From an uncultured Candidatus Saccharibacteria bacterium (GTDB lineage: Bacteria; Patescibacteriota; Minisyncoccia; Phycocordibacterales; UBA9973): DNA of 64,000 nt. Below the pieces are notes generated by a model. It was not told the origin of the DNA. It ran no database searches and saw only the letters and a list, made by a program, of their open reading frames with translations. Positions 5,598 through 55,682 of this stretch are shown in pieces (position 1 is the stretch's first letter; the number at the start of each line of letters is the position of its first letter). Made by a program: the position numbers and the translations under genes. The DNA lies in assembly GCA_964577515.1 (NCBI GenBank), contig CAZNZN010000001.1, positions 876 to 64,875 of the forward strand, in the 5' to 3' direction.

Positions 5598-5611
5598 ACC
5601 ATAACTCTTGA

Positions 5612-12196: not shown

Positions 12197-12583
12197 CTAT
12201 AAGAAAAGCTTCGGGATGAAGATGATGCACCCGACGGCGATAGCTCCTGCGACCGTCAAAAGGACTGCTCCGGCTGCAACATCTTTGGTATCACGAGCGT
12301 ACGGGTGGTAATTGGGACTCGTAAGATCAATGTCAAACTCAAGTGCTGTATTAAAACCTTCTGCAGCAAGGACTGCTGCTATAGAAAGTACAATAAGACC
12401 CCACTCTGCTTCGCTGATATGAAACCAGAAGCCCAGAAAAATTGCTATAAGCGCAACAACACCATGCACCCATGCGTTGTGCTGTGTCTTGAAAATGACC
12501 ACCACCCCTCGAAGGGCATACCTTAAACTCCTCGCTCGTGCTATTATCGAAAATCGTTTTTTCTCTGAGAGTTTCTTTTCCAT
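12197..12583 (-). CDS. dgkA: diacylglycerol/undecaprenol kinase DgkA family
   Basis: 128 aa with 3 TM helices. DgkA motifs are present (EGFNTALE...[12 protein letters not shown]). Inserted between rpsS and rplB. Confidence 0.7.
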
Positions 12584-31708: not shown

Positions 31709-31711
31709 ATG

Positions 31712-33199: not shown

Positions 33200-33828
33200 T
33201 GTTGTATTTTAAGGTTACGAATAGCGACCTGCGAACTGACTTCTGCTACAGGAGGAGGTTGCTTTGTATCTTGATCAATTCTTATCTTAATACCAATCAA
33301 GCGCACCGACTCCAAAGCACCCGAAGTTGGGTCAACAATACCTCCAGAGCCTCCAGTATAGGTATCACTATAATAGGTAAACATAGAGATACTTTCAGAT
33401 TGATTTCTGACCCCTGTCATAAAGGTAGTAGTTATTTTATTTGCTTGGTTATAGACAAGCGGGTTCCCTGTTGGTTTAATCACTTCTTTTATTAGATTCG
33501 TCCCTGAAACACTGTACTTAACCCATTCTTTTAAATTATCATTATCAATATCGCTATAGAAAGAGAAGCTATAGGCCCCTATTGCATCAATCGGGTACGC
33601 ACCAGCATTTGAAGGGCTCGATGAACGAATTTCTTCAGTCATTGGACGAAGGAGTTTTTGTGCACTATCGGCAGTAGAAAGTGTATTATTAAAATATCGC
33701 CCATAAGAGAAAACATCTGCTTCAAACTTTCCAATAACAACACTGAGTACTCCGACGATAGCAACAACGACAAGAATCTCAATGAGTGTAAGTCCTTTAT
33801 TCTTATGGAGTGATTGTTGTTGTATCAT
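33196..33828 (-). CDS. type IV pilin-like protein (prepilin N-terminal methylation motif)
   Basis: KGLTLIEILVVVAIVGVL class-III signal (G/TLIE). Start overlaps the upstream gene. Confidence 0.7.
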   Translation of the reverse strand: MIQQQSLHKNKGLTLIEILVVVAIVGVLSVVIGKFEADVFSYGRYFNNTLSTADSAQKLLRPMTEEIRSSSPSNAGAYPIDAIGAYSFSFYSDIDNDNLKEWVKYSVSGTNLIKEVIKPTGNPLVYNQANKITTTFMTGVRNQSESISMFTYYSDTYTGGSGGIVDPTSGALESVRLIGIKIRIDQDTKQPPPVAEVSSQVAIRNLKIQQ

Positions 33829-35572
33829 ACGTATCACCATTAATTGTAATATCTTTTACTACTGACGTATAGCCGGACTTACTTATAATCATACTGTATA
33901 TACCGTTTGAAAGTCCCCCAAAGTCAATCTGCCCAGGAGGAAGACATCCAGAAGAGTATGTAATACCTATATCACTTATACTTGGTGTTTTGGTTGTATC
34001 AATGGTTGAAAGAAATATCTTATAACGAAGGTATTGGTCTCCATTATGACTATCAGCGATATCTGCTCCGTTCACTGTGTAGTATGTTTGATCTGTGCCA
34101 TCAGGACCGACAAAGTTCCATGTTGTAGCATCATTATTGGTTGCTATTTGAAAACGTATCGCACTTGCTCCTACTCCAACAGGCTGAGTCCCTGGGAGCC
34201 AAGATAGTTGCTGAAATGTTGTCGGCGCACCAAAGTCGATAGTTGAAGAGGTAAGCGATCCGTTTTGAATGTATAGTCCAGCGCTTCCCAAAAGAGTGAT
34301 TGCTCCAACCGTGCTGTAGTCAATATTTCCATCAGAAGAAGCAAATTTTGTTTCATCGGTAAACAATGACTGTCCGCCACCACCGCTCCAATCTGTCTGC
34401 GTTAGCGAGCCGACACTTGTTTGACCACTACGACTTGCTGGACCGGAAAGAGCTACAGTAGCACCTGCGACAGGAAGACCTGAAGCATCAACAACTGCAA
34501 CAACAAGACGGTTGGGGGCTTCATCGTCTAGTGTAAGCGTCACTTGCGGCGCAGCTCCGGGCGAAATTGATAGCGGAGCAATAGGGTTGGTCCCCACAAT
34601 ATCGTATGTTGTCCCATTAATAACAGGAGAGTACGTGTCCCATTCAATACCTGAAAGGGTCAATGTACTTCCTGTCACAGAAAAAGGAATAGTAGTTTTT
34701 CTAACATCAGGGCTAGTTCCTATAAGTTTTGTTCCTACAAAACTACCAGATACACCACTGATGACAGTACATTGTGTAGTGCGCAAAGCAAGTGTTACTG
34801 TTGCGGTTGTATCAATAGCAAACGTTGATTGTGTAACAGTATTTGCAGCAACAGTAAGATGCGGCTTCACTGGATTAGGGTTACCTGTATCACCAGGCGT
34901 ATAGGTTCGGTCAACAGAATACCCTGATTTTGTCACAGTGATTTTATACTGCTCCGTCGAAGGAGGAGCATCAACAATAGTAAGCACCCCGTTCGTATCG
35001 GTAGTATCAGTAATGTTCACCTGTGGATTTAAGGCGGTGTTTTGTATTGTTACAGTAGCAGCAGGAACAGGTGCACCATTTGCATCAATAGCTTTTATTA
35101 TAAGCGCACCATTTCCATTTTCGGTTTCTAACCCTTTAGGAGCAACACCACTAGTATATTCAGCGGTAACAGGAGTAATACAAGAAGTGCACGCTACCTC
35201 TATAGAAACAAGTTTGTTGTCTGCAGGAGATAAATCGTTTGGTGTACCACCAAGGGTGCCATCCGCAGGGTAATCAATGTTACGAATTGTTGTTGTGACA
35301 AGAAAAGTAATACCGTTACGAACAACAGTCGCTGTCTGCGCAACGATTCCTGAAGGGATACCGTTTATTGTTCCAACATCTGTATATTGGAGGTTACGAA
35401 TAAATTCCATTTTTTCACTGGCGATCTGCGTTGCGATAGTCTTAACACGGATCCGTGTCGCAACTTCAGAAAGCTTTGCATATAATTGATATAGTGCTAC
35501 CGAGAAAACAACAAAAACAGCTGCTGCCACAAGTGTTTCTATAAGTGTTGTTCCTCGCTGAGAGCGACGCAT
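33803..35572 (-). CDS. large (589 aa) type IV pilin-like protein with carboxypeptidase-regulatory-like beta-sandwich repeats
   Basis: RGTTLIETLVAAAVFVV prepilin motif. Repeated ATVTIQNT...TDTNGVLTI-like segments. Confidence 0.65.
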   Translation of the reverse strand: MRRSQRGTTLIETLVAAAVFVVFSVALYQLYAKLSEVATRIRVKTIATQIASEKMEFIRNLQYTDVGTINGIPSGIVAQTATVVRNGITFLVTTTIRNIDYPADGTLGGTPNDLSPADNKLVSIEVACTSCITPVTAEYTSGVAPKGLETENGNGALIIKAIDANGAPVPAATVTIQNTALNPQVNITDTTDTNGVLTIVDAPPSTEQYKITVTKSGYSVDRTYTPGDTGNPNPVKPHLTVAANTVTQSTFAIDTTATVTLALRTTQCTVISGVSGSFVGTKLIGTSPDVRKTTIPFSVTGSTLTLSGIEWDTYSPVINGTTYDIVGTNPIAPLSISPGAAPQVTLTLDDEAPNRLVVAVVDASGLPVAGATVALSGPASRSGQTSVGSLTQTDWSGGGGQSLFTDETKFASSDGNIDYSTVGAITLLGSAGLYIQNGSLTSSTIDFGAPTTFQQLSWLPGTQPVGVGASAIRFQIATNNDATTWNFVGPDGTDQTYYTVNGADIADSHNGDQYLRYKIFLSTIDTTKTPSISDIGITYSSGCLPPGQIDFGGLSNGIYSMIISKSGYTSVVKDITINGDTYDTTTITP

Positions 35573-35579
35573 GGTATTG

Positions 35580-36788
35580 TTATTTAATTGAATCCATTAT
35601 TGAATACATAGGAGAGAGCATTGAAACCGCAAAAAATCCAACAGCTGCTCCGATAAAAATCATAAGTACTGGTTCAATAATCGTCGAGAGATCTTTAGTT
35701 TTATTATCGACTTCTCCTTCATAAAAAGTAGCGACGTCTAAAAGCATCGTTCCAAGATTTCCTGTCTCCTCTCCTACTTCTATCATCTCGCTCATCATCA
35801 CAGGGTAGAGTTGTGTATGTGTTTTAAATACTCCAGAAATAGGAGCACCTTTCTGCACTGCAGCTTCGACTTCTTCAAGCACTTCTTTATAATACGCGTT
35901 TTGCACAACCTCTTTTGTAATAGCAATCGCTCGACTAATAGAAACGCCTGACCCTAGAAGAGATGAAAGTGTTCGCGTTGTACGAGCAGTATTCACTTCC
36001 TTTGCAATCCCTCCAACAACAGGAAGACGTGTAGAAAGCCAATCAATCATCCTTTTTGTTCTTGGTATCTTACTTATCGCTACTCCAAGACCAACAACCG
36101 CAGCAAGCGCGAGGAAAACTAACAGCACATGATTTGATATCAAGTCACTAAGTCCTATAACAAATTTTGTTGAACCAGGAAGTTCTGTACCAAGATCTTT
36201 AAAAGTCTTCGTGAGTGTTGGGACAACATAAATAAACATAAGTATCGCTATAAGTATGATCGCTGACATGATGATAGATGGGTACATCATTGCGCTTTTT
36301 ATTTTTTTATTTAACGCATAACTTTTTTCAAGGTTAAGCCCGATTTCATTGAGTGTTTTTGGGAGACCACCTGACTCTTCTCCTGCGCGAACCATAGCAA
36401 CAAACAGCGGTGAAAACACTTTGGGAAACTTTGTAAGCCCTTCAGAGAACGTCCCTCCTTTATCAATTGTTTCTGAGAGTGTTTGGATTATTTTTTTAAA
36501 GTAAGCATTTGTAGTCTGCTTAGAGAGTACCTGAAACGCTCTCGAAAGAGAGAGTCCTGCGCGAAGCATCCCTGAAAGATTTTTAGTAAAGATAATTTTT
36601 TCACTCAGCTTAACACTGTTACCTATAAAAGGAATAGTGATATTCATAGCCCCCTTCTTTTCTTCAAGCATAACAGGTGAAAGCCCTTGATTTTTTAGCG
36701 CAACAATAGCAGTTGCTTTATCATCGGCCTCGAGGGTTCCACTCACTACTCTTCCTGTTACTTGTCGTGCTTTGTAAGAAAACTTCAT
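35580..36788 (-). CDS. pilC: type IV pilus assembly platform protein PilC (GspF family)
   Basis: 402 aa. Two T2SSF repeats and 3 TM helices. Confidence 0.85.
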   Translation of the reverse strand: MKFSYKARQVTGRVVSGTLEADDKATAIVALKNQGLSPVMLEEKKGAMNITIPFIGNSVKLSEKIIFTKNLSGMLRAGLSLSRAFQVLSKQTTNAYFKKIIQTLSETIDKGGTFSEGLTKFPKVFSPLFVAMVRAGEESGGLPKTLNEIGLNLEKSYALNKKIKSAMMYPSIIMSAIILIAILMFIYVVPTLTKTFKDLGTELPGSTKFVIGLSDLISNHVLLVFLALAAVVGLGVAISKIPRTKRMIDWLSTRLPVVGGIAKEVNTARTTRTLSSLLGSGVSISRAIAITKEVVQNAYYKEVLEEVEAAVQKGAPISGVFKTHTQLYPVMMSEMIEVGEETGNLGTMLLDVATFYEGEVDNKTKDLSTIIEPVLMIFIGAAVGFFAVSMLSPMYSIMDSIK

Positions 36789-36853
36789 GTCTCTCTAGTA
36801 TACCGTGTGACATAAAAAAAACGACCCTTGGTAGGATCGTTTTGTTGAAAACA

Positions 36854-38602
36854 TTACTCACTCACCACACGGAGCACTTCTTCAATGGTTGTTTTTCCTT
36901 GCACTGCTTGAAAGATACCATCTTCAATCATTGTTATCATCCCCTCTTTTTTTGCTTGTGCCTCTACCTCGTCAGCAGATCCGCCGCGTAGAATGATTTC
37001 CTTCACTGCGGGGCTCACTTTGAGTGCCTCATGAATACCAACGCGGCCCTTATATCCATCCTCTGATTCTTCATTTTTTACTGGACGAAAGAGAGGTATC
37101 TCTTTCCATGGCGTTTTTGGTTTTATTATCTGCTCTCCTTCAAGGAACCCACGGATACGTTCAAGATCAACTATCTTGTTAAGGTTCACTATCTCTGCAT
37201 CAGTTAAGAAATACTGTTCTTTTTTTGCAGTGAGTCGACGTACAAGACGCTGTGCAATAATCACCTTTGCAGTAGAAACGATCAGAAACGGTTCAACCCC
37301 CATATCTATAAGCCGAGGAATAGCCCCAGCAGCTGAGTTGGTGTGGATAGTAGAAAGCACCAAGTGACCAGTAAGCGCAGCATTCACCGCAAGAGAAGCC
37401 GTCTCTCCATCACGAATCTCCCCCACCATAATGATATTTGGATCTTGTCGAAGGAGTGCACGAAGCCCGTTTGCAAACGTCATACCAATCTCACTTTTTA
37501 CTTGCGTTTGATTGATACGTGGCATTTGATACTCAATCGGATCTTCAATGGTTGAGATATTCACCGCAGGAGTATTTAAAATATCAAGCATTGTATAGAG
37601 CGTCGTTGTCTTTCCTGATCCTGTCGGACCAGACGCAAGCACAATCCCTGAGTGCTGTTTCATTCCTTCGTGGATACTTTCAAGACATGATCCGTGAAAC
37701 CCAAGCCCTTCAAGAGTGAACCCGTGTGAAGACTCACGCAAAATACGTATCACCGTCTTCTCGCCAAAGTATGTTGGGAGTGTTGAAACACGAAATGATA
37801 CGGGTGAATCATCAAGTACGATTTTGAACCGTCCGTCTTGTGGAAGACGTTTTTCGTCAAGTTTCAAATTTGAAAGGACCTTGATACGAGCCGTCATTGC
37901 TGGAGCAGCGTCTTTCGGAAGCGTCATAGCGTCATGGAGTATCCCGTCAATACGATATCGCACCACCAGTGACTCTTCTCCAGGCTCAATATGTACATCA
38001 GAAGCTCCTTGCAAGATAGCGTGTGAAATAAGACTGTCAACGATTTTCACCACTGGCAAATCCTCTGCAAGTTCTTTGAGATCTTTTTCTGATGTTGTGT
38101 CGTCTTTCTCATCAACTTTTTGAATACTCCCGACCTCTTTTTGAATAATAGAATCAAACTCTGCCTGAAGACTCTTTTTGTACTGCAGTAGTACCGCCTT
38201 TATAGATTCACTATCAGTAAGACGAGGAAGAATACGAAGTCCTGTTTTTTTCTTTACGAAATCAATCGCAGGAAGGTTATCAATATCGAGAAGACATATT
38301 TCGAGATCGTTTCCCTTTTTTCGACAAGGCACCACGTTATATTTACGTGCAATTGGTTCTGGAATTAGTTGCAGTATTTCTTTATCGATTTTTTCTTTTT
38401 CAATATTAAGGTATGGGACACCGATCACGTACGCCTGCAACTTACGAAGCTCTTGCTCTTTGAGTTTGTTGTTTGTAAGGAGGTAGTCAGAAAGCGTTGT
38501 TCCTTTTGCTTTTTTTTCTGCTTCAAACGCATTCAAATCATCAACAGAGATGATGTTCGTATCAAGAATAAGTCGTGTTAATTTTGCTTCATCAACAACC
38601 AT
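36854..38602 (-). CDS. pilB: type IV pilus assembly ATPase PilB (GspE family)
   Basis: Walker A GPTGSGKTTTL, Asp box, His box. N-terminal GSPII-like domain. Confidence 0.9.
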   Translation of the reverse strand: MVVDEAKLTRLILDTNIISVDDLNAFEAEKKAKGTTLSDYLLTNNKLKEQELRKLQAYVIGVPYLNIEKEKIDKEILQLIPEPIARKYNVVPCRKKGNDLEICLLDIDNLPAIDFVKKKTGLRILPRLTDSESIKAVLLQYKKSLQAEFDSIIQKEVGSIQKVDEKDDTTSEKDLKELAEDLPVVKIVDSLISHAILQGASDVHIEPGEESLVVRYRIDGILHDAMTLPKDAAPAMTARIKVLSNLKLDEKRLPQDGRFKIVLDDSPVSFRVSTLPTYFGEKTVIRILRESSHGFTLEGLGFHGSCLESIHEGMKQHSGIVLASGPTGSGKTTTLYTMLDILNTPAVNISTIEDPIEYQMPRINQTQVKSEIGMTFANGLRALLRQDPNIIMVGEIRDGETASLAVNAALTGHLVLSTIHTNSAAGAIPRLIDMGVEPFLIVSTAKVIIAQRLVRRLTAKKEQYFLTDAEIVNLNKIVDLERIRGFLEGEQIIKPKTPWKEIPLFRPVKNEESEDGYKGRVGIHEALKVSPAVKEIILRGGSADEVEAQAKKEGMITMIEDGIFQAVQGKTTIEEVLRVVSE

Positions 38603-38650
38603 AACTGTATTGTAACAAAAAAACCGACATAGTGTCGGTTTTTTTGTTTT

Positions 38651-39739
38651 TTAAAACTCTTTAAAAATTGATTTTCGCTTATTGAGCTCAGACGTATCGT
38701 TTGGATCGTACACGCCGTTGGTATAACACCCCGGATCATTTGCATCTTTTACACCGTCACCGTCATTATCAATACCATCGCTACATTCAGGTTGCGGTGC
38801 ACCGGTCACTGTAACTGTTGCGTTGGCATCAGTAGTCCCTCCTGCTCCAGTACATGAGACAGTGTAGGTAGTAGTACTTGCAGGAGATACTGCGAGAGAT
38901 CCACTCGTTGCACCTCCAGTATTAAACCCAAACCCACTACATGATGTTGCGTTTGTTGAACTCCAAGTAAGTGTTGAAGAATTCCCGAGCGGTATCGATG
39001 TAGGGTTTGCAGTAAGAGAAGCTGTTGGAGCAGGTGGATTTACCTGACAAATACTTCCGTTCCATGTTGTCCCCCCAGCACATGAAGCTGTTGCAGAAGA
39101 CTGTGCGAGAAGCACTGCATTGTGGTACAGATAAAAATCAGTTTGCCCATAGCCAAGCGTTGTCGCTTGCGTCCCTCCAGCAAGTGGAGACGGGGTAAAT
39201 GATGCAGGAGAGCCAGTGTTTCGAGTAATCGCTGTAGGGTTCACCGTGAGATTTGCAGTAGTCCATGAAACAGTACTTCCACAAGACGAAGCATTTGCAG
39301 CAATGGTACACCCTACAGCTGATAGGGTCCCTGAAGGCGCCCCTCCGTTGTTTACCACAACAAGCGCAGTATCTGACGCATTCGCATACCCAGCCTTCAC
39401 ACAGGTTATTTCAAAGAGATGACTTCCAGCGGTAAGTCCTGTGATATCTTCAAACTGTGTCGCGTTTGCACTCTTATTCCCTGACCACCAACCGTTGTTT
39501 GTTGCTGTACAACTATCAGGAGATCCTGTGGTGGTCCATGTAAGACGTGTTTGGTTGGTAGGGAGAGTCATTGTATCTGGAACAGCAGTAAGTGTTACTG
39601 TGATAGCAACAGGAGCTCCTCCATCTACAACATACGGGAGTGCACTACTATAAGGGACAAAGCCTGCTAAAGCCTCCCTTGAAAAACCAAAGAAAGTGAA
39701 AGCAGTTAAAACAATAAAAGAAAGAAAGTATTTATTCAT
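38651..39739 (-). CDS. secreted Thr/Ser/Gly-rich protein with a C-terminal Asp-rich Ca-binding-like motif
   Basis: Signal peptide, then repeated Cys-containing beta-rich segments. C-terminal CSDGIDNDGDGVKDANDPGC resembles TSP3/dockerin-like Ca-binding motifs. Confidence 0.55.
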   Translation of the reverse strand: MNKYFLSFIVLTAFTFFGFSREALAGFVPYSSALPYVVDGGAPVAITVTLTAVPDTMTLPTNQTRLTWTTTGSPDSCTATNNGWWSGNKSANATQFEDITGLTAGSHLFEITCVKAGYANASDTALVVVNNGGAPSGTLSAVGCTIAANASSCGSTVSWTTANLTVNPTAITRNTGSPASFTPSPLAGGTQATTLGYGQTDFYLYHNAVLLAQSSATASCAGGTTWNGSICQVNPPAPTASLTANPTSIPLGNSSTLTWSSTNATSCSGFGFNTGGATSGSLAVSPASTTTYTVSCTGAGGTTDANATVTVTGAPQPECSDGIDNDGDGVKDANDPGCYTNGVYDPNDTSELNKRKSIFKEF

Positions 39740-39768
39740 ATCAATAACTATGGTTAGAACTGACTAAT

Positions 39769-41724
39769 TTATTCACAATATTCTCCATCAACGATTTCAA
39801 TACTCAAAGGGAGTGCCCCACTCATATCTACGTTCGACCATGTAAACGTAGGGTCTGGGTCACCTCTTTGCTGTACTGCACAGGTCGACATTCTGTTTCC
39901 GTACGTGTCATACAGGTTAGTATGACCTCCTGGCATTGAGCTACCCAAAGACCATCGAATATACACATCAGATACTCCAAAAAAATTTAGAGGGCCGGCA
40001 GTGCCACCACCAGGACCAAGGGGGAATGGATTATTTGATGGCACTAATGAAACACCGTCAACAGCAGCATCTTCCAAAATAGTCGCCAGTGAATTATTTG
40101 TAGCGTTAAACTCATGTACACCAGAATTCACAGAATCATCTACCTCAACGGTAAAGCTGACATAAAACGTCTGTGGCAAAGGAGGAGTTGTGGGGACGTT
40201 CACTGTGAAATACTGTGATGCCGGTGCAAAATAAGGACTATATGCAGGAATAGAAACTACGCCAGGAAAAAGATTAGCTGTGTTTCCTGTAGGAAGATCT
40301 ATCCATGAGAAGGTAACCGTTTGATCAAGTGCTGACAAATTTTCAATGTAGCCATCCACCTGTATCTCATCCCCTTGTGAAAAAGGTTGACCAGGGTGGG
40401 TAAAGTTGGACAAGCTTATAGTCACATACAACTCATTATTTGCACCAGCATAAAACTGAGCAGCTTGTACTTCCGCTGTAGGAAGAACACTAAGAGCAAG
40501 GAATATAACAAACCCAGCAATGATTTGCGGAGATGCTCGTCGCTTCTTTATATAGAGTCCGATAAGTGCAATAACAACAAGGATAAGAACGAGAAGCACC
40601 GCTCCTTGTCCCCCAGAAAATACACTAGGATTCTTTGTTGATGTTGTGGCAATACTGGTTTCGTCTTGCGCAACTGTAGCACCTGCAGCATTTGTGACTG
40701 CAACAGAAACTACTGGATTAAAACAGTTATGTTTTACTTGCACAGTTGCTGTTTGTACCCCGTTTTTTGGTGACGAAACTACTGCTTTACCGCAGGTAAG
40801 CCCTCCACTTGTCTTTATGACAACTGCAGCATCTTTGAAAACAGCCCCTGCACTAGTAAGCGCAAATGCTATTACTGCTTGTTCACCTTTAGCGTAATAA
40901 TCCTTATCAGCAAGAATACTTTTGATAGAAGCAAATGATCCAAAGACACTGTATCCCGCAACAACACTGTTTGATACTGATTGTCCGTTTACAAGCTGTA
41001 CGACTGTTTTATAGAGCCCTGCATCTTTTGGAACAGGAAGAGTGACTGCAATTGTTTTCTTTTCAGCTGGCTTCACCAAAAAAGGAGTAGTCGTACCTCC
41101 GATAGCTTCTACAGAAGCGCCGTAGATGTTTCCTGAAAATGTTTTAAAAGAAGGAGTGCCTGCAATAGGACCACTTGCGGTGTTGGTAACAACACAGGTA
41201 AGCACCGGTGCTTCGTTTTCACGGAGAAGCACTGTAGATGATAGTTGCAACGACTTTTTCTGTTCAGCACCACTGACAGTACAGCTTCCTGGGACAATAA
41301 CGAGTCCCTTCTCTTCTGCACTGAAGGTGACATCTTTCAATGTCATCAGTCCAAGTGTAAGTCCTGACTTTTCAGAAACAACAAGCTGCATCGTGTAGGT
41401 ACCACTAAGCACTGCTGGTGGTACATAGACTGCACTCTTCTTTAGAGTGCCTTGTTCCGCTAGAGCAAAAACCTCTGGGAAAACTGTCTCATCAACAACA
41501 ACCCGATCTTTGTTCAAAAGGCGAATACCGTACATCACTTCAGGATGTGCACCTGCACCATTTGTCATGGTAAATGAAAAGGCAACCGAACGACCTACTT
41601 GGTCAGTAACGGAAGCACCTTGAATATTTACTTGCGAAAGTTGTCGAACTTGTTGCGCAAACGCGACAGGCGAAGCGACAAACATTCCGAGGACAATCAA
41701 AACACCTACAATGATTCTCTTCAT
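39769..41724 (-). CDS. large surface protein with two extracellular domains joined by a predicted TM helical hairpin
   Basis: Signal peptide MKRIIVGVLIVLGMFVASPVAFA, a ~390-aa domain, TM (GAVLLVLILVVIALIGLY), KKRRASPQ, a second hydrophobic helix (IIAGFVIFLALSVLPTA), then a ~260-aa Pro-rich domain. Confidence 0.55.
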   Translation of the reverse strand: MKRIIVGVLIVLGMFVASPVAFAQQVRQLSQVNIQGASVTDQVGRSVAFSFTMTNGAGAHPEVMYGIRLLNKDRVVVDETVFPEVFALAEQGTLKKSAVYVPPAVLSGTYTMQLVVSEKSGLTLGLMTLKDVTFSAEEKGLVIVPGSCTVSGAEQKKSLQLSSTVLLRENEAPVLTCVVTNTASGPIAGTPSFKTFSGNIYGASVEAIGGTTTPFLVKPAEKKTIAVTLPVPKDAGLYKTVVQLVNGQSVSNSVVAGYSVFGSFASIKSILADKDYYAKGEQAVIAFALTSAGAVFKDAAVVIKTSGGLTCGKAVVSSPKNGVQTATVQVKHNCFNPVVSVAVTNAAGATVAQDETSIATTSTKNPSVFSGGQGAVLLVLILVVIALIGLYIKKRRASPQIIAGFVIFLALSVLPTAEVQAAQFYAGANNELYVTISLSNFTHPGQPFSQGDEIQVDGYIENLSALDQTVTFSWIDLPTGNTANLFPGVVSIPAYSPYFAPASQYFTVNVPTTPPLPQTFYVSFTVEVDDSVNSGVHEFNATNNSLATILEDAAVDGVSLVPSNNPFPLGPGGGTAGPLNFFGVSDVYIRWSLGSSMPGGHTNLYDTYGNRMSTCAVQQRGDPDPTFTWSNVDMSGALPLSIEIVDGEYCE

Positions 41725-41843
41725 ATTAAAATTTTTATATTGAAAACAACTACTAATACTTGTAAAGTATAGCATTTAAAAAAGAGGAAAAGAAAAAACC
41801 TTCGGTGTACACCGAAGGTTTTAATCTTTTTGCATCTTACTAC

Positions 41844-46489: not shown

Positions 46490-46520
46490 AAAAACCCCTC
46501 CAAACGGAGGGGTTTTGTTT
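46488..46520. terminator. bidirectional intrinsic terminator (tig / LpxC-like)
   Basis: A7-CCCCTCC-AAAC-GGAGGGG-TTTTGTTTT. Confidence 0.6.
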
Positions 46521-47329
46521 TAGGAAAAAACATTGTTAATAGCAGAGAGTGTTTCACGATGCCCCGCCATATAAGAAGTTGCAGCACCTATGGGAAGAGC
46601 AGTGTGACTAACAAGGGACAGTTCACCAAGAAAATCTTGCATCCGGTGATACCCCCAGTGGATAGCCGCAACCTCCTTTGATGGAAAATCACTTTTCCAT
46701 GAGACAGTGCGCATGTGCCCCCAAATACCAAGAGTGCTCAGAACTTTTGCTGGAACCTTTCTTTTTGAAAGCCCTTGTGGTTTTGCTGAGAGCACCTCTA
46801 AAATCTTAGCAGTTTCATAAAGTTTGGAGAAAAGAATGCTCTGCTTGTTTTCAGGAAGGTCTTCCCACTGAGAAACAACTTCCAACCGCAAATCCGGGAG
46901 TGGTTGCGGTGCGAGCACCACATAAGAACCCAGCTTGTTTGCACTTGCATACTCTCCTTTTTGAGGAAAACGCACAACAGGAAGTATGGCTTCTGTTCCA
47001 TACAGATAAGGAGAGAGCTCAGTGAAATACTCAAGCGCTGTATAGTAGGGCGGCCAAGTATCAGCGCTAATCAGAACACAATCAATACCAAGGAATCGAA
47101 GTATTCCGATATGCTCCCAGACATTAAGGACGTGCCCTTTATAAAAAAGTTGTACTCTTCCTTTTTTATATCGTGCGATACGCCAATCTATTGGAATGAT
47201 TTCATCACCAACCTTCCACCACCATCCAAGTTTACTGTATGGAGCAAAAGTGATAGCACTTCTTTTGTTTAAGAAGTTTTTTCCTGTTATTGTTACAGAA
47301 CGAGACAATAGTTTTTGTTTAATATCCAT
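46520..47329 (-). CDS. LpxC-family (UDP-3-O-acyl-GlcNAc deacetylase-like) protein
   Basis: VWEHIGILRFLGID resembles LpxC TVEHL..AL.GLGID. HRMQDFLGEL resembles HKMLDAIGDL. A GH motif lies near the C-terminus. Start trimmed to MDIKQKLL. Confidence 0.55.
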   Translation of the reverse strand: MDIKQKLLSRSVTITGKNFLNKRSAITFAPYSKLGWWWKVGDEIIPIDWRIARYKKGRVQLFYKGHVLNVWEHIGILRFLGIDCVLISADTWPPYYTALEYFTELSPYLYGTEAILPVVRFPQKGEYASANKLGSYVVLAPQPLPDLRLEVVSQWEDLPENKQSILFSKLYETAKILEVLSAKPQGLSKRKVPAKVLSTLGIWGHMRTVSWKSDFPSKEVAAIHWGYHRMQDFLGELSLVSHTALPIGAATSYMAGHRETLSAINNVFS

Positions 47330-47612
47330 TTTGTCTTTTTTTCTAGAGACTACTAGAAAACAAGAAAAAGTCAAAAGAAAAAGCCCCTAAAGGCTTTTAT
47401 TTTTGTAGCAAACCCAGAAACGTCATCTGGATTTCAATGAGTTCTATATATGAATACATGGCAAGGTTTTTGTTTATTTAATTCTACAATAGAAATACAT
47501 ATAGTCAATGTATTCCCCTTTTACTACCAAAACGGTATAGTACCTCTATACTGCAATGCTGCTACGACCGTCTGCCGATAGTATTATTCATTTTGATTTT
47601 TTGAACACACAT

Positions 47613-48208: not shown

Positions 48209-49729
48209 ATGGACAACTTCATCCTCGCAATCGCCATGCTCCTTGCAGGTGGAGCGCTTGGGTACAGTATTAGAGCAGTTATTTTTGTTCTCAGAAAAAA
48301 CTCTGTCGAGTTCTCTGTTTCACAGCGACTAATGCACGCTCGTGAGCAAGCACAAAAAATCGTTGACGAAGCTCAAGAAAAAGTCACCGCGTTGTGGGAC
48401 GAAATAAGAGATACTGAAAAACAAAAAGAGGGTGACTATAAGCAAACCGAGGATCGTCTTATAAAGAAAGAATCTCTTCTTGATATTCGAGCACAAGAGC
48501 TGGATGAGCGCTCTCGACAACTAGAACAACGCTCCCTCCAAGTAGAAACACTTACCCGACAGGCTGAAACACTCCTTGAAACACGAGAAAGTGAACTCGA
48601 ACGCCTTGCGGGATTCTCACAAGAAGACGCACGGAACGCACTTGTTATTGATACACAAAAAAAATATGAGGAAGATCTTCTTGTGCAGAGCATGAAACTC
48701 GATACCGTATTACGAGAAACCCTTGAAGAGAGGGCAAAAAACATTCTTCTTACGACAATTCAACGACTTGCCGTGCCAACAACCAACGAACTCACCACTG
48801 CAACTGTCACACTCCCTAGTGATGACCTCAAAGGGAAAATCATCGGAAAAGAAGGAAGGAACATACGAGTATTCGAACGTATCGCAGGGGTAGAGCTGTT
48901 AGTAGATGAAGCCCCAGGATGTATTATTGTTTCTTGTTTTGATCCAGTACGACGAGCTATTGCAGCAGATGCTCTGGAGGTACTCGTAAAAGACGGCAGG
49001 ATCCAACCCGCAAAAATCGAGGAGGAGCTTGAAAAAGCAAAAGAGCGAATTCACCAAACCATCAAAGATAAAGGTGCCCAAGCTGTCTATGAGTGCGGGA
49101 TTTACACGCTTGATCCGCGAGTTGTAGCAATACTCGGGAGACTGCACTACCGCACAAGCTATGGACAGAACGTATTGCAACACTCTATTGAAATGGCGCA
49201 CATTGCAGGAATGCTCGCAGCCGAGCTTGGTGCGGATGTTGCTATAGCAAAAGCTGGAGCACTTGTGCACGACATAGGAAAAGCACTTGACCACGAGTTT
49301 GAAGGAACACATGTAGAGATTGGAATAAAAATGCTTCGACGTTTTGGCACCGATGAAAAAATTATTAGCGCAATGAAGAGTCACCACGACGACTGTCCTC
49401 ACGAATCAGTAGAAGCAGTACTCGTACAGACCGCAGATATGATATCTGGAAGTCGACCTGGTGCACGCCGAGACACTGCCGAGATGTACCTCAAACGACT
49501 CACCGACCTCGAAGGCCTTGCCACACGGTTTGGTGGAGTAGAAAAAGCATACGCACTACAAGCAGGAAGAGAGATTCGCATTTTTGTTCATCCAGAAGCT
49601 ATCTCCGATATGGAGGCGCGAACACTTGCTCGATCAATAGCACAAAATATTGAAGAAGAGCTACGCTATCCAGGACAAATAAAGGTGACCATTATTCGGG
49701 AAACTCGTATCACTGACTATGCACGATAA
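48209..49729 (+). CDS. rny: ribonuclease Y
   Basis: N-terminal TM, coiled coil, KH (GKIIGKEGRNIRVFE) and HD (HSIEMAHIAG...HD) domains. Confidence 0.9.
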   Translation: MDNFILAIAMLLAGGALGYSIRAVIFVLRKNSVEFSVSQRLMHAREQAQKIVDEAQEKVTALWDEIRDTEKQKEGDYKQTEDRLIKKESLLDIRAQELDERSRQLEQRSLQVETLTRQAETLLETRESELERLAGFSQEDARNALVIDTQKKYEEDLLVQSMKLDTVLRETLEERAKNILLTTIQRLAVPTTNELTTATVTLPSDDLKGKIIGKEGRNIRVFERIAGVELLVDEAPGCIIVSCFDPVRRAIAADALEVLVKDGRIQPAKIEEELEKAKERIHQTIKDKGAQAVYECGIYTLDPRVVAILGRLHYRTSYGQNVLQHSIEMAHIAGMLAAELGADVAIAKAGALVHDIGKALDHEFEGTHVEIGIKMLRRFGTDEKIISAMKSHHDDCPHESVEAVLVQTADMISGSRPGARRDTAEMYLKRLTDLEGLATRFGGVEKAYALQAGREIRIFVHPEAISDMEARTLARSIAQNIEEELRYPGQIKVTIIRETRITDYAR

Positions 49730-49766
49730 AAAAAATACTCGGACCATGTCCGAGTATTTTTTTTAC
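49727..49766 (+). terminator. intrinsic terminator after rny
   Basis: A8-ATACTCGGAC-CAT-GTCCGAGTAT-T8 (10-bp stem). Confidence 0.65.
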
Positions 49767-49781
49767 TGTATACTTGTAAAT

Positions 49782-52472
49782 ATGTTTACTCCTCGCGAAA
49801 CTTTTTCTACAACACAACAAGAGCTATCACACCTTGGCCAAGAATCGCAGCGCGCATATATATTACAGAAAGAACATGTTCGATCGCTCGAATCAGCAAC
49901 GACACATACCGTTGAAACATACGCTCGAGCACAAGCAGCTGATTTTCTCCATGAGAGCGCAATACTTCCCGCCCATGAGGCAGAGCGCATTATTCTTCGA
50001 CTTAAACCAGAGTCTCATGACAAAAAAATAGAAGAGCTTTTTGGTGTCATGGTAGAAAAAGGAGTTAAAAACGCTCTTGATATTGTACAAAAAATGAAAG
50101 ACCCTCATTTACGAGATGATTTTCATCGATTCCTTGTGCAGTACCTCCATAGTATCGGAGCAATCCCAGGACTTAAAGAAAAAGATGGTCTCTATAGTGA
50201 GCTTTCTCACACGCTCTTTTCTATCGCTCTCCCCCAAGAAGAAAATGAGGACTTCAAAAAGAAAACAGCTGCAATGGAACAGTTTTGTACAAGTCTTGTT
50301 TCACTTGTTGGTATTGGTAACAGCGTTGCAATAGAACTCGCAGTTGAACACAGTAGGAAAGATATTGTTGTCTATATTGCCGTACCCAAAAATACTATTG
50401 ACGGCTTTGAGAAGCTTGTACATTCTTTTTTTCCTGGAGCAGCAGTGGAGGAAGCAGTAGATGATTACAACATTTTTGGAACTGAGACGCCAGCAATTTC
50501 TGGAAGTACAGCAACACTACGAGATGCAGCATGGAAACCATTGCAAACATACGAGGATTTCCAAAACGATCCTTTTGGTGCAATCCTAGGAGCCCTTTCT
50601 CGTATAGCAGAAACAGGAGAAGGCTGCGCTATACAGTGTGTTATTGCAGAACCGTTTGAGCGTATTACCGAACGAAACAACGCTATTATCAGCGATACAC
50701 AAAAAGGAGGAGTCACTGTCAAAGATCTTTATAAGAATGCAACTGAAGGAGTAGTTACTGGTCTTGCAAAGGAAGCATGGTCACTATTTTCTTCAAAAAA
50801 ACACGAAGAAAACACCACTGTTGATACTGAAGGGTTGGAACTTCTCAAAAAGAAAAATAGTGCCCGTATCGTAGAAGCAACACTGCGCATTATTGCGAGT
50901 GCTCAAAACAGTACACGCGCTGAACAACTACGTACATCCGTAGAGGCGACCTTTGGTCAATTTACACACCCACAAGGAAATATGCTCACCTGGGTTCCAG
51001 CAAAAGGTGATGCCCTACTATCACTCGCAGAAGATTTCTCATTCCGTCGCAGCGGGAGAAATCCGCTTGAACTCTCTCTCAAAGAAACCGCTTCTCTTTT
51101 TCACTTCCCTACAGGAACCAAGAGCCCCCACGAGCTTATAGGAAACGACGGTGTAAGCGCGCCTGCACCACAAAACGCAACTCAAAGAGGAGAAGGAGTG
51201 TACCTTGGAACCAATACCTTCAGAGGACAAACGAGTGATATATTCCTCGCAAAAGAAGACCGTGTTCGTCACTGTTATGTGATAGGGCAAACAGGGACAG
51301 GAAAAACGACCATACTAAAAAACATGGTGATCCAAGACATCAAAAACGGTAACGGCGTCTGCTTCATTGATCCACATGGAAGCGATCTAGAAGATATTTT
51401 GGCAAATATTCCTGCTGAACGTATCGACGATGTTATCTACTTTGACCCAGCGCATACCGCTCGACCTATGGGGCTCAACATGCTTGAGTATGATATACAG
51501 TTTCCTGAACAAAAAATCTTTGTTATCAACGAACTTCTTGCTATTTTCAACAAACTCTTTGATATGAAAGTTGCCGGAGGGCCTGCCTTTGAACAATACT
51601 TCAGAAACTCTGCAGGGTTGGTCATGGAGGATCCCGAAAGTGGATCTACACTACTTGAAATTGGACGAGTACTTTCTGACAAAGCATTCCGACAGATGAA
51701 ACTCGAACGATGCAAAAACCCTATCATCAAACAGTTTTGGGAAAATGCAGAAAAAACTACAGGTGAAGCCTCTCTTGCAAACTTTGTTCCCTACATCACC
51801 AACAAGTTTGATGTATTCATCTCTAACGACATCATGCGTCCAGTGATTGCGCAACAAAAAAGTGTTCTTAATTTCCGCGAAATAATGGACAAGAAAAAAA
51901 TACTTTTGGTAAACCTTTCAAAAGGACGCCTCGGAGATATAAACTCTCACCTTATCGGTCTTGTTCTTGTAGGAAAGCTCACCATGGCAGCACTCTCTCG
52001 TGTGGATATGGTTGGCAAAGGACCGATCAACGATTTCTACCTCTATATTGATGAGTTCCAAAATGTTACTACTGACTCTATTGCAACCATTCTCTCAGAA
52101 GCTCGAAAATATCGACTTTCACTTACCGTTGCACACCAATACATTGAACAGCTTGAAGAAAATATAAAAAACGCAGTATTTGGTAACGTCGGAAGTATGA
52201 TCATTTACCGTGTTAGCCCTGAAAATGCTGCAGTATTCGAACGCCAACTTGCGCCAACCTTTACTCCTGATGATATTCTCAAGTTACAAAACTTCAACGC
52301 TATCGCGAAAATGTTGGTACAAGGAATCCCAGAAAAACCTTTCACGCTTCGCATTCCTCCACCACCAAAAGGAAACGCTACGATTGCTGAAAAGGTAAAA
52401 GAGTTGTCGTATCTCAAATATGGACGCCCTCGTGAGGAGGTTGAGAACGAAATAATGGCACGGTATCGCTAA
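49782..52472 (+). CDS. TraG/TraD/VirD4-like type IV coupling-protein-family P-loop ATPase with a ~450-aa N-terminal domain of unknown function
   Basis: Walker A GQTGTGKTT, Walker B LYIDEFQN. The TraG-D_C-like segment is RKYRLSLTVAHQYIEQLEE...VGSMIIYRVSPENA. No TM helices were seen. Confidence 0.6.
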   Translation: MFTPRETFSTTQQELSHLGQESQRAYILQKEHVRSLESATTHTVETYARAQAADFLHESAILPAHEAERIILRLKPESHDKKIEELFGVMVEKGVKNALDIVQKMKDPHLRDDFHRFLVQYLHSIGAIPGLKEKDGLYSELSHTLFSIALPQEENEDFKKKTAAMEQFCTSLVSLVGIGNSVAIELAVEHSRKDIVVYIAVPKNTIDGFEKLVHSFFPGAAVEEAVDDYNIFGTETPAISGSTATLRDAAWKPLQTYEDFQNDPFGAILGALSRIAETGEGCAIQCVIAEPFERITERNNAIISDTQKGGVTVKDLYKNATEGVVTGLAKEAWSLFSSKKHEENTTVDTEGLELLKKKNSARIVEATLRIIASAQNSTRAEQLRTSVEATFGQFTHPQGNMLTWVPAKGDALLSLAEDFSFRRSGRNPLELSLKETASLFHFPTGTKSPHELIGNDGVSAPAPQNATQRGEGVYLGTNTFRGQTSDIFLAKEDRVRHCYVIGQTGTGKTTILKNMVIQDIKNGNGVCFIDPHGSDLEDILANIPAERIDDVIYFDPAHTARPMGLNMLEYDIQFPEQKIFVINELLAIFNKLFDMKVAGGPAFEQYFRNSAGLVMEDPESGSTLLEIGRVLSDKAFRQMKLERCKNPIIKQFWENAEKTTGEASLANFVPYITNKFDVFISNDIMRPVIAQQKSVLNFREIMDKKKILLVNLSKGRLGDINSHLIGLVLVGKLTMAALSRVDMVGKGPINDFYLYIDEFQNVTTDSIATILSEARKYRLSLTVAHQYIEQLEENIKNAVFGNVGSMIIYRVSPENAAVFERQLAPTFTPDDILKLQNFNAIAKMLVQGIPEKPFTLRIPPPPKGNATIAEKVKELSYLKYGRPREEVENEIMARYR

Positions 52473-54567: not shown

Positions 54568-54609
54568 AAAAAGAGCCTTACCGCTGTAGCAGTAAGGCTT
54601 TATTTTTAT
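54568..54609. terminator. bidirectional intrinsic terminator
   Basis: AGCCTTAC-(10 nt)-GTAAGGCT followed by TTTATTTTTA. Overlaps the desaturase stop codon. Confidence 0.55.
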
Positions 54610-55682
54610 ACAGGCCTCCTTCCAAGAAGTTTGAGGAAGCGTACATGAGAAGCAAGAGCATCACGCATCGTGTTATGCACGACCATTTGCACACCATGCT
54701 TTTGACATATTGGCTTGATAAGCCGATGAATCACGGGATAGTGTACATGAGAAAATCCCGGAAAAAGATGATGCTCAATTTGGAAATTGAGTCCTCCTAC
54801 CCACCAACTAAGCACACTGTTCTCCACAGCAAAGTCTGCAGTTGTCACAACTTGGTGACGGAACCATTCTGTCTTGTGCACCGTTGCTGCGCTAGGGTGT
54901 TGTGTTTCATCCACACTATGCGCAAGTTGAAACACTGTTGCAATCTTGAGTCCACAGGATAGCGACATAACACTATACCCTATCACCCACTGCCACACAC
55001 CAAGTGTATACATAGGCACAACAACAAAAAACAGTATGTGTACAACTTTGCTCATCCAGAAGAGCACGTGTTCTCCTGGCGAAAAAGCAATAGGGCTCTT
55101 GTACAGAATCCTTCGTGTAAAATACTTCTTGTAATCATTCCACCATACCCACTGTAGATACAGGAGACTGTAGAAAAATCGCCAGTACCACCATTTATGC
55201 TGGTGGCGATGTCTAGGTCGCCAGGGCTGTTCTTCATGTAAACGCAACCTCTCTGCTGTTTCAATGTCTTCATCAAACCCATCAATGTTGGTATGGGTGT
55301 GGTGAATAATGTTGTGTTTCGTTTTCCAGAGCGTGTCATTTGCCCCGAGAAAGTTCAAGGATAATCCCGCCACTGTATTGATCCATGCCTTTTTACTGTA
55401 GCTTCCGTGTAACGCATCGTGCATCACACAAAAACCTATTCCAGGGAGAATATATCTTCCCAAAAGAACTACCGCAAAAAGCTTTAACCACCATGGTGGA
55501 GCCATCCCTACAATAAAAAAGTACAGTGCGAAGAACAAGGAAAACAGGACAATCGTCTTTTGATACAAACGCCAATCCCCTTTTTCGCTTATCCCATGAG
55601 AATCGAAATACTCGTAAACAACATTTTTGACTTCTGTTGTGAAGTCGCCTGCATTTGTAAACTTTGGAACTAGTTGTTTCAT
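54606..55682 (-). CDS. membrane fatty-acid desaturase
   Basis: Three histidine boxes (HDALH, HNIIHH, QIEHHLFP). Multiple TM helices. Start trimmed to MKQLVPKF. Confidence 0.8.
   Translation of the reverse strand: MKQLVPKFTNAGDFTTEVKNVVYEYFDSHGISEKGDWRLYQKTIVLFSLFFALYFFIVGMAPPWWLKLFAVVLLGRYILPGIGFCVMHDALHGSYSKKAWINTVAGLSLNFLGANDTLWKTKHNIIHHTHTNIDGFDEDIETAERLRLHEEQPWRPRHRHQHKWWYWRFFYSLLYLQWVWWNDYKKYFTRRILYKSPIAFSPGEHVLFWMSKVVHILFFVVVPMYTLGVWQWVIGYSVMSLSCGLKIATVFQLAHSVDETQHPSAATVHKTEWFRHQVVTTADFAVENSVLSWWVGGLNFQIEHHLFPGFSHVHYPVIHRLIKPICQKHGVQMVVHNTMRDALASHVRFLKLLGRRPV

What the first reader, a model, noticed from the sequence alone, without database searches (positions are those of the whole stretch)
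46520..47329. Lone LpxC-family deacetylase homologue in a genome segment with no other lipid A genes
The product shows the LpxC-like blocks VWEHIGILRFLGID, HRMQDFLGEL and a C-terminal GH motif. The alignment was done by eye against E. coli LpxC. If this organism is a monoderm CPR bacterium without LPS, an LpxC homologue would need another substrate, such as a cell-wall glycolipid. Alternatively it indicates an unexpected outer-membrane lipid pathway.
Basis: partly seen in the sequence, partly recalled or inferred. Interest (0 to 1): 0.5.

Follow-up and report, generated by a model that had tools for sequence, protein, structure and literature searches.

The report
Divergent LpxC-like deacetylase in a CPR bacterium
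This gene encodes a very divergent relative of LpxC, the zinc enzyme that commits Gram-negative bacteria to making lipid A; it belongs to a small, undescribed family found in ultra-small bacteria (Patescibacteria/CPR), described as having no outer membrane, so it probably removes an acetyl group from some other, still unknown, molecule.

The parts
46520..47329 (-). CDS, 269 aa: LpxC-superfamily zinc deacetylase homologue (Patescibacteria LpxC-like family)
47111..47116 (-). Codons for E72-H73, equivalent to the general base E78 and zinc ligand H79 of E. coli LpxC
   Evidence: hmmalign mapping: E in 99% and H in 100% of 139 family members. Coordinates verified.
46634..46648 (-). Codons for H228-R-M-Q-D232, the H(K/R)xxD motif; H228 and D232 are equivalent to zinc ligands H238 and D242, and R229 to K239
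   Evidence: H 99%, R 94%, D 100% in the family. Aligned to HKMLD of E. coli LpxC.
46559..46564 (-). Codons for G256-H257, equivalent to G264-H265 (the catalytic His of LpxC)
   Evidence: G 96%, H 100% in the family.
46775..46783 (-). Codons for K183-P184-Q185, aligned with R190-T191-F192 of LpxC; the oxyanion-stabilising Thr is Pro here and the Phe is Gln
   Evidence: the family has T 42 / P 23 / S 17 / A 16 % at the T191 column and Q 68% at the F192 column. Coordinates verified.
46491..46516 (.). GC-rich hairpin with T-runs on both sides: a bidirectional intrinsic terminator shared by this gene and the convergent tig gene
   Evidence: 11-bp stem, 6 GC pairs. It begins 4 nt after the stop codon.
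47347..47374 (-). Candidate proximal promoter TTGACT-N16-TAGTCT, 18 nt upstream of the ATG (inferred)
   Evidence: This block is conserved between the window and the 65%-identity relative L008 within an otherwise divergent intergenic region. It was not reported by the consensus scan, so it is an inference.
47379..47398 (.). Terminator-like hairpin upstream of the gene, between a distal promoter-like site and the proximal one
   Evidence: L008 has a hairpin at the same place with a different stem sequence.
47481..47508 (-). Distal sigma-70-like promoter match TTGACT-16-TAGAAT (10 of 12)
   Evidence: One site was found where shuffles give 2.5, so this is weak evidence on its own.

Best explanation
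The gene encodes a soluble, cytoplasmic, zinc-dependent amide hydrolase (N-deacetylase) with the two-domain LpxC fold and the complete LpxC catalytic apparatus. A zinc ion would be held by H73, H228 and D232. E72 would act as general base on the zinc-bound water. H257 would act as the second catalytic residue, and R229 would replace K239. The protein belongs to a distinct family that, as far as I could find, has not been described. About 320 sequence clusters were found, and every member carrying a taxonomic label is from Patescibacteria/CPR. These bacteria are described as having a single membrane. No partner enzyme of the lipid A pathway was seen near any member examined. The chemistry is therefore LpxC-like, but the substrate is most likely not UDP-3-O-acyl-GlcNAc. 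The positions that in LpxC line the acyl-chain tunnel and contact the sugar are replaced by other conserved residues: Trp, Arg, Gln and His. My best guess for the substrate is an N-acetylated amino-sugar intermediate of cell-envelope synthesis or salvage. Candidates are a UDP-HexNAc or UDP-MurNAc-type precursor, which also carries a 3-O substituent, or a GlcNAc phosphate. Shown: homology, fold, conservation of the catalytic residues, purifying selection, and absence of lpx neighbours. Inferred: catalytic activity, cytoplasmic location (no N-terminal signal peptide is apparent, and the N-terminus aligns with that of LpxC), a non-lipid-A substrate, and the link to the cell wall.
For: Homology and fold:
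- The 139-sequence profile hits only LpxC chains in the PDB, over the full length (Aquifex 9e-18, E. coli 1.7e-16, Pseudomonas 6e-12).
- 125 of 139 family members hit PF03331 at E<=1, and no other Pfam family recurs.

Active site: E72 99%, H73 100%, H228 99%, R229 94%, D232 100%, H257 100%. The roles of the E. coli residues are taken from PMC13333357.

Real gene: dN/dS 0.18, and it has its own terminator.

Distinct family:
- 319 representatives at E<=1e-3, nearly all 260-300 aa.
- In the word-indexed search, family members score 226-310 bits and canonical LpxC-FabZ proteins 46-64 bits.
- NCBIfam has no dedicated model.

Altered substrate positions: T191->P184, F192->Q185 (Q 68%), L62->G57 (R 57%), V217->W211 (W 99%), I198->R190, D246->E236 (A 57%). 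The tunnel residue list is from PMC11472313.

No lipid A partners: none in the 64-kb window and none in 370 kb of window plus relatives' loci by tblastn.

CPR origin:
- Relatives occur in two MAGs labelled Candidatus Saccharibacteria.
- One family member is filed in NCBI under 'Patescibacteria group'.
- The S5-L15 junction lacks L30.

Cell-wall neighbours: three members lie next to mraZ-rsmH-ftsL-ftsI-murF, one next to ddl with a nearby GH3, one near murE/murD-like ligases, and one next to a PGM/PMM (GlmM-like) gene.
Against: - No enzymology exists for any member.
Insert II (beta-alpha-beta, residues about 185-211) is still present in the model, so a lipid-binding passage cannot be excluded.
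- Gene neighbourhoods are heterogeneous. The window itself and its two closest relatives have tig and clpP as neighbours. Other members sit beside unrelated housekeeping genes. The three dcw-adjacent cases may share that arrangement by descent.
- Peptidoglycan genes are common in small genomes, so the adjacency may be chance.
- Only 64 kb of this genome was seen.
- The T191 equivalent is Pro here, which might lower activity.
Confidence: 0.7

Rival explanations
1. It is a genuine LpxC (EC 3.5.1.108) acting on UDP-3-O-acyl-GlcNAc, as part of a lipid A-like or other acylated glucosamine glycolipid pathway that has gone unrecognised in these CPR bacteria.
For: Full LpxC fold including both inserts. 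All zinc and catalytic residues are kept. NCBI's pipeline already names one family member UDP-3-O-acyl-N-acetylglucosamine deacetylase. An acyl carrier protein gene lies next to one member. A fatty-acid desaturase gene lies 7 kb away in the window.
Against: No LpxA, LpxD, LpxB, FabZ or BamA homologue was found in the window or in the other fetched loci and listed contexts. LpxC's substrate requires LpxA. The T191, F192, L62, V217, I198 and D246 equivalents are replaced, several by polar or bulky conserved residues. The few CPR organisms whose envelope has been described are monoderm (PMC8871954). Family members score only up to about E 1e-12 against the curated LpxC models, and the window protein does not hit them at all.
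Confidence: 0.08
2. It functionally replaces a missing amino-sugar salvage deacetylase. It would act as a NagA analogue converting GlcNAc-6-P to GlcN-6-P, or a related step, feeding scavenged GlcNAc into UDP-GlcNAc and peptidoglycan synthesis. This is a specific sub-case of the best explanation.
For: One member lies directly downstream of a PGM/PMM (GlmM-like) gene. Another lies two genes from a GH3 (NagZ-like) glycosidase and next to ddl. The conserved basic residues (family 'RR' at the L62/C63 columns, R229) would suit a phosphorylated substrate. From general knowledge, CPR bacteria depend heavily on scavenging.
Against: It rests on single, unreplicated adjacencies. The presence or absence of nagA in these genomes was not tested. 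The family is rare (319 clusters), so it cannot be a general CPR solution.
Confidence: 0.12
3. It is a non-catalytic relic of a lost lipid A pathway, retained as a structural or regulatory protein (a pseudoenzyme).
For: It is a lone gene in a lineage without LPS. It evolves faster than its neighbours: 42% identity vs 54-70% against L006, and 65% vs 76-81% against L008. The T191 and D246 equivalents are lost.
Against: The five metal-binding and catalytic residues are conserved at 99-100% across members only 22-30% identical overall. That pattern is expected for an enzyme, not for a pseudoenzyme. dN/dS is 0.18.
Confidence: 0.05
4. The resemblance to LpxC is a chance match of short motifs, and the protein is unrelated.
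For: The single-sequence Pfam hit is sub-threshold (E 0.18). NCBIfam gives nothing. tblastn with E. coli LpxC does not find the gene. Single-sequence phmmer against the PDB ranks de novo TIM barrels first.
Confidence: 0.01

Closest known systems
LpxC, UDP-3-O-acyl-N-acetylglucosamine deacetylase (Pfam PF03331; E. coli NP_414638; PDB 4MDT, 1XXE)
   Same: Two-domain beta-alpha-alpha-beta fold with both inserts. Similar length (269 vs 270-305 aa). Zinc ligands His/His/Asp, the general-base Glu and the C-terminal catalytic His all lie in the same order and motifs (EH, H-basic-x-x-D, GH). No signal peptide is apparent.
   Different: About 16-20% identity. The window protein fails the Pfam and NCBIfam cut-offs. 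The T191 equivalent is Pro. The F192, L62, V217, I198, D246, K143, F161 and K262 equivalents are replaced. There is no C-terminal tail beyond the last helix. No lpxA/lpxD/lpxB was seen in the window or in other members' contexts. The host lineage is described as lacking an LPS outer membrane.
Singleton lpxC and paralogous 'lpxC2' genes reported in monoderm Bacillota (Desulfotomaculum acetoxidans, Peptococcaceae bacterium DCMF; PMC11448272)
   Same: An lpxC homologue standing alone in a bacterium that lacks the rest of the LPS outer-membrane gene set, interpreted as a remnant or repurposed paralogue of unknown function.
   Different: Those genes were recognised as lpxC by standard searches and occur in Bacillota. 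The present family is in Patescibacteria. Its window subclade is invisible to Pfam. I did not test whether the two groups are specifically related.
Other zinc-dependent GlcNAc deacetylases: NagA, the LmbE family (MshB, BshB, PIG-L), CE4 peptidoglycan deacetylases (from general knowledge)
   Same: The proposed kind of reaction: metal-assisted hydrolysis of the acetamido group of an amino sugar in envelope or thiol-cofactor metabolism.
   Different: Unrelated folds. No sequence or structure match to them appeared in any search here.

Membership tests
LpxC superfamily (fold level) | Two-domain beta-alpha-alpha-beta sandwich with Insert I and Insert II | tested here: met
LpxC superfamily (sequence homology) | Statistically significant, full-length, collinear profile match to LpxC | tested here: met
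   The family profile A2 against the PDB gives E 9e-18 to 3e-11 for 28 distinct LpxC sequences and no other protein below E 0.8. 125 of 139 members hit PF03331 at E<=1.
LpxC (Pfam PF03331 / NCBIfam TIGR00325 membership of this protein) | Score above the curated gathering cut-off | tested here: not met
   PF03331 scores 11.7 bits against a cut-off of 27, E 0.18, and only residues 228-266 align. No NCBIfam hit at E<=10.
LpxC enzyme (EC 3.5.1.108) | Zinc ligands H79, H238, D242 | tested here: met
   H73, H228 and D232 are present in 100%, 99% and 100% of 139 family members. The residue roles are from PMC13333357. Convergence of the three side chains in 3-D could not be measured because the coordinates are not exposed.
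LpxC enzyme (EC 3.5.1.108) | Catalytic E78 and H265 | tested here: met
   E72 (99%) and H257 (100%).
LpxC enzyme (EC 3.5.1.108) | Oxyanion-stabilising T191 | tested here: not met
   The aligned residue is P184. The family shows T 42 / P 23 / S 17 / A 16 % at this column.
LpxC enzyme (EC 3.5.1.108) | Hydrophobic acyl-chain tunnel (E. coli L18, L62, I198, C207, F212, V217) | tested here: inconclusive
   The aligned residues are F19, G57 (family R 57%), R190, T199, M206 (family H 40%) and W211 (family W 99%). This suggests a remodelled or occluded passage. The mapping comes from a low-identity sequence alignment, and no cavity calculation was possible.
LpxC enzyme (EC 3.5.1.108) | Genomic co-occurrence with lpxA and lpxD (which make and consume its substrate and product) and the rest of the Raetz pathway | tested here: not met
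   None in the 64-kb window and none in about ten contexts of family members. tblastn with E. coli LpxA/B/D, FabZ and BamA against 370 kb found nothing. Whole genomes were not available, so absence is shown only locally.
LpxC enzyme (EC 3.5.1.108) | Deacetylation of UDP-3-O-(R-3-hydroxyacyl)-GlcNAc | not testable with these tools
   Requires an enzyme assay or genetic complementation.

The most novel reading that the evidence does not exclude
The family is a vertically inherited, repurposed survivor of the lipid A pathway in Patescibacteria. On this reading an LpxC that lost its acyl tunnel now deacetylates a peptidoglycan-type nucleotide sugar. UDP-MurNAc is one candidate because, like LpxC's substrate, it is a 3-O-substituted UDP-GlcNAc. 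That would be molecular evidence that CPR bacteria descend from an ancestor with an LPS outer membrane. It would also point to an undescribed, cytoplasmic N-deacetylation step in their cell-wall synthesis.
Probability: 0.12. Interest if true: 0.8.

Novelty: new variant of a known kind. Interest (0 to 1): 0.52.

Why it matters
LpxC is regarded as a hallmark of bacteria with an LPS outer membrane, and it is a major antibiotic target. This family has the LpxC fold and an intact catalytic centre. It has a remodelled substrate region, and it occurs in Patescibacteria that show no lipid A genes nearby. That matters in three ways.

1. It points to an unknown amide-hydrolysing step in the poorly understood envelope or salvage metabolism of CPR bacteria.
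2. It gives a concrete marker for testing whether CPR bacteria lost an outer membrane. A phylogeny of this family against canonical LpxC would do that.
3. It warns that automatic 'LpxC' labels in CPR genomes, and LPS-pathway calls based on them, are probably wrong.

The window's own subclade is missed by Pfam and NCBIfam, so it is currently annotated as hypothetical.

Tried and rejected
- **Single-sequence searches.** Pfam, NCBIfam and phmmer against the PDB gave only a sub-threshold LpxC hit. They also gave spurious de novo TIM-barrel hits, caused by one WEH..LR.LG-like stretch. I rejected these as uninformative.
- **Word-indexed homologue search.** It found only 5-12 relatives and badly understated the family size. 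The exhaustive search found 319.
- **First AlphaFold model.** Built from 5 sequences, it was mediocre (pLDDT 68). It was superseded by the 139-sequence model.
- **Metagenome scan with the 139-sequence alignment.** It failed because no stretch was conserved enough. I repeated it with 15 sequences.
- **AFDB50 fold search.** The library was unavailable, so I obtained no UniProt organism names.
- **Literature.** I searched for LpxC with Saccharibacteria, Patescibacteria or CPR, for 'LpxC-like/homolog/paralog', and for Patescibacteria with deacetylase. I also searched the supplements of the Southlakia Tn-seq paper. None describes this family.
- **Rfam on the upstream intergenic region.** Nothing was significant.
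- **Longer TTG start at 47374.** Rejected. The homologues' N-termini align with the ATG, and the TTG overlaps a conserved TTGACT box just after a hairpin.
- **Family-conserved Asp three residues after the catalytic His.** I considered whether it replaces D246. In the window protein that position is Thr, so I make no claim.

Full report
**1. The observation**

The window has an ORF on the minus strand at 46520-47374. The ATG at 47329 gives a 269-aa product beginning MDIKQK. VWEHIGILRFLGID lies at 47081-47122, HRMQDFLGEL at 46619-46648, and GH at 46559-46564.

The same protein, without a single nucleotide difference, is encoded on several independent metagenome contigs. A 92%-identical allele (L012) differs mostly at synonymous sites (dS 0.24, dN 0.043, dN/dS 0.18). 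This is therefore a real gene under purifying selection.

A GC-rich bidirectional terminator follows the stop codon at 46491-46516 and is shared with the convergent tig gene. The upstream 226-bp spacer towards clpP contains a promoter-like site at 47481-47508 and a hairpin at 47379-47398. It also contains a TTGACT-N16-TAGTCT block at 47347-47374 that is conserved in the 65%-identity relative. The gene is a stand-alone transcription unit, opposite in orientation to both neighbours.

**2. Is it an LpxC homologue?**

PF03331 is the only Pfam hit, but at E 0.18 and 11.7 bits against a cut-off of 27, covering only residues 228-266. NCBIfam gives nothing. Single-sequence phmmer against the PDB gives only noise. 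tblastn with E. coli LpxC does not find the gene.

Building up the family resolved the question:

- The word-indexed search found five clusters. Their alignment has E72, H73, H228, D232 and H257 invariant. It already aligns end to end with E. coli LpxC (positions 3-258 vs 2-267, E 2e-3).
- An exhaustive HMMER scan of 1.84 billion representatives with that profile found 319 proteins at E<=1e-3 and 256 at E<=1e-10. Nearly all are 260-300 aa and match over their full length.
- A 139-sequence alignment of these gives a profile that hits 28 distinct LpxC sequences in the PDB. Scores are Aquifex 9e-18, E. coli 1.7e-16 and Pseudomonas 6e-12. Nothing else scores below E 0.8.
- 125 of the 139 members hit PF03331 at E<=1 (best 7e-16), and no other family recurs.

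**3. What kind of LpxC relative?**

I aligned authentic E. coli LpxC (NP_414638) to the family HMM and read off the functional columns. The residue roles come from PMC13333357 (zinc ligands H79, H238, D242; catalytic E78, T191, H265). The acyl-tunnel residues L18, L62, I198, C207, F212 and V217 come from PMC11472313.

The catalytic core is kept almost perfectly in a family whose members are only 22-30% identical to each other:

| E. coli residue | Window residue | Conservation in family |
|---|---|---|
| E78 | E72 | E 99% |
| H79 | H73 | H 100% |
| H238 | H228 | H 99% |
| K239 | R229 | R 94% |
| D242 | D232 | D 100% |
| G264-H265 | G256-H257 | G 96%, H 100% |

The substrate-side positions are not kept:

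| E. coli residue | Window residue | Family |
|---|---|---|
| T191 | P184 | T 42, P 23, S 17, A 16 % |
| F192 | Q185 | Q 68% |
| L62 | G57 | R 57% |
| C63 | R58 | R 71% |
| I198 | R190 | L 43, R 22 % |
| F212 | M206 | H 40% |
| V217 | W211 | W 99% |
| D246 | E236 | A 57% |

K143, F161 and K262 are also not conserved. The pattern is identical chemistry with a different pocket, which is what a change of substrate would produce. There are three caveats. The mapping rests on a low-identity sequence alignment. I could not access the model coordinates to compute a cavity. The beta-alpha-beta element corresponding to Insert II is still present.

The family is clearly separate from canonical LpxC. In one search, family members score 226-310 bits and canonical LpxC-FabZ fusion proteins 46-64 bits. 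NCBIfam has no dedicated model, and only a third of members weakly touch the LpxC models. The window protein belongs to a subclade with no precomputed Pfam hit at all (P0001-P0005, P0158). More central members do carry PF03331.

**4. Whose gene is it, and is it alone?**

Pfam annotation of the called genes covers the whole window. It shows the S10-spc ribosomal operon, secY, EF-G/EF-Tu, type IV pilus genes, pgk/tpi, recJ, nusA, ppa, tig, clpP, rny, a DUF8128/TrwB-like ATPase and tRNAs. It shows no lpxA/B/D/H/K, kds, waa, lpt or bam gene.

S5 is followed after 14 nt by L15, with no L30 between them. From general knowledge, this is a CPR trait.

Several relatives carry taxonomic labels:

- Two MAGs are labelled Candidatus Saccharibacteria. 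One of them, L006, shares the tig-X-clpP-rny-ATPase synteny and has 54-70% identical neighbours.
- One member of a more distant cluster is in NCBI as a 'Patescibacteria group' protein, auto-named UDP-3-O-acyl-N-acetylglucosamine deacetylase.

The few CPR organisms whose envelopes have been described are monoderm (PMC8871954).

None of about ten genomic contexts of family members contains lipid A genes. tblastn with E. coli LpxA, LpxB, LpxD, FabZ and BamA against 370 kb of window plus relatives' loci found nothing. I could not scan complete genomes.

**5. Neighbourhoods**

| Locus or member | Arrangement around X |
|---|---|
| Window, L008, L006 | tig \| X \| clpP-rny; X is inverted in L006 relative to the window |
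| L007, P0021, P0020 | mraZ-rsmH-ftsL-ftsI-murF <- \| X -> \| lysS-greA |
| L013 | X, tsaD, cmk-like, murE-like, murD-like, DUF218 |
| L015, L016 | GH3, BspA-LRR \| X \| ddl |
| P0169 | PGM/PMM (GlmM-like) \| X |
| P0045 | aminoacyl-tRNA synthetase (tRNA-synt_1b) \| X \| acyl carrier protein |
| P0050, P0031 | Unrelated housekeeping genes |

Peptidoglycan-related neighbours recur, but they are not universal. In small genomes they could be coincidental, and the three dcw-adjacent cases may share ancestry. I treat this as a hint only.

**6. Mechanism proposed**

- Shown: an LpxC fold, a conserved His/His/Asp plus Glu plus His centre, purifying selection, and no lipid A partners nearby.
- Inferred: a cytoplasmic zinc hydrolase that removes an acetyl (or similar acyl) group from an amino-sugar-type substrate other than UDP-3-O-acyl-GlcNAc. 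No signal peptide is apparent, and the N-terminus aligns with that of LpxC.
- Speculative: the conserved Arg, Trp and His residues at the former tunnel positions would suit an anionic or compact 3-O substituent or a phosphate. That makes UDP-MurNAc-type precursors or GlcNAc phosphates attractive candidates, in line with the mur, ddl and glmM neighbours.

I put about 0.9 on 'catalytically competent LpxC-superfamily metallo-deacetylase'. I put about 0.7 on 'not a lipid A enzyme', and about 0.3 on a cell-wall or amino-sugar substrate specifically.

**7. Rivals**

- A true LpxC in a cryptic glycolipid pathway: about 0.08.
- A NagA-like salvage role, which is a sub-case of the best explanation: about 0.12.
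- A pseudoenzyme relic: about 0.05. The 99-100% conservation of the catalytic residues argues against it.
- Chance resemblance: refuted.

**8. Comparison with the known, and novelty**

The closest family is LpxC itself. The protein meets the fold, homology, metal-ligand and catalytic-residue criteria. It fails the curated model cut-offs, the T191 criterion and the pathway-context criterion. I therefore place it in the LpxC superfamily but not as an LpxC (EC 3.5.1.108).

A partial precedent exists. Singleton lpxC and 'lpxC2' genes in monoderm Bacillota have been interpreted as remnants with possible new roles (PMC11448272).

I found no description of the Patescibacteria family in the searchable literature. 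Databases carry its members as 'hypothetical protein', as unnamed proteins, or in one case as LpxC.

My verdict is a new variant of a known kind. It is of moderate interest now, and of high interest if it proves to be a repurposed relic of an ancestral lipid A pathway.

Noticed in passing
window 47379-47508 (- strand), between clpP and the LpxC-like gene: A promoter-like site (TTGACT-16-TAGAAT) is followed about 85 nt later by a terminator-like hairpin plus T-run. The leader folds better than shuffles (z = -3.1). The 65% relative L008 has a hairpin at the same place with a different stem sequence. This could be a small RNA, a leader or attenuator, or an insulator against the divergent clpP promoter. 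There was no Rfam match.
   Followed up: partly
window 12197-12583 (- strand): A prokaryotic diacylglycerol kinase gene (PF01219, 128 aa) is inserted inside the S10 ribosomal protein operon, between rplB (L2) and rpsS (S19). This is an unusual place for a lipid-metabolism gene.
   Followed up: no
window 5157-6208 (- strand): rpsE (S5) is followed directly by rplO (L15) after a 14-nt gap, with no rpmD (L30) gene. This is consistent with a CPR/Patescibacteria origin of the window.
   Followed up: partly
window 54606-55682 (- strand): A fatty-acid desaturase family gene (PF00487, 358 aa) sits in a reduced CPR-type genome, about 7 kb from the LpxC-like gene. The relevance to membrane lipid remodelling is unknown.
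   Followed up: no
window 49719-52472 (+ strand): A large DUF8128 / TrwB-like (DUF87, AAA) ATPase lies directly after rny. It is conserved next to rny in L006 and L008, and DUF8128 proteins also occur near family members in other CPR contigs. It may be the coupling-protein-like ATPase of the Patescibacteria type IV secretion or competence machinery.
   Followed up: no
window 46520-47329 compared with L006 9980-10798: The LpxC-like gene keeps its position between tig and clpP but is inverted in L006 relative to the window and L008. It is also the fastest-evolving gene of the block: 42% identity vs 54-70% for its neighbours.
   Followed up: partly
L007 10007-10846; P0021 and P0020 contexts; E. 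coli L021: In three CPR members the LpxC-like gene lies divergently next to mraZ at the 5' end of the dcw cell-division/cell-wall cluster. In E. coli, lpxC lies at the 3' end of the same cluster, directly after ftsZ. This may be a coincidence or an ancient linkage.
   Followed up: no
L019 13800-15186: A bAvd accessory gene plus a reverse transcriptase (RVT_1), the signature of a diversity-generating retroelement, lies 3 kb from the LpxC-like gene in a Patescibacteria MAG (GCA_964363585.1).
   Followed up: no
L020 3968-6358: The DNA polymerase III gamma/tau (dnaX) gene carries an intein with a LAGLIDADG homing endonuclease, in a CPR MAG (GCA_964548405.1).
   Followed up: no
window 30926-41775 (- strand): A type IV pilus gene cluster (PilB-like T2SSE ATPase 36854-38602, PilC-like T2SSF 35580-36788, a prepilin-like N_methyl protein and several large unannotated proteins), as is typical of episymbiotic CPR bacteria.
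   Followed up: no
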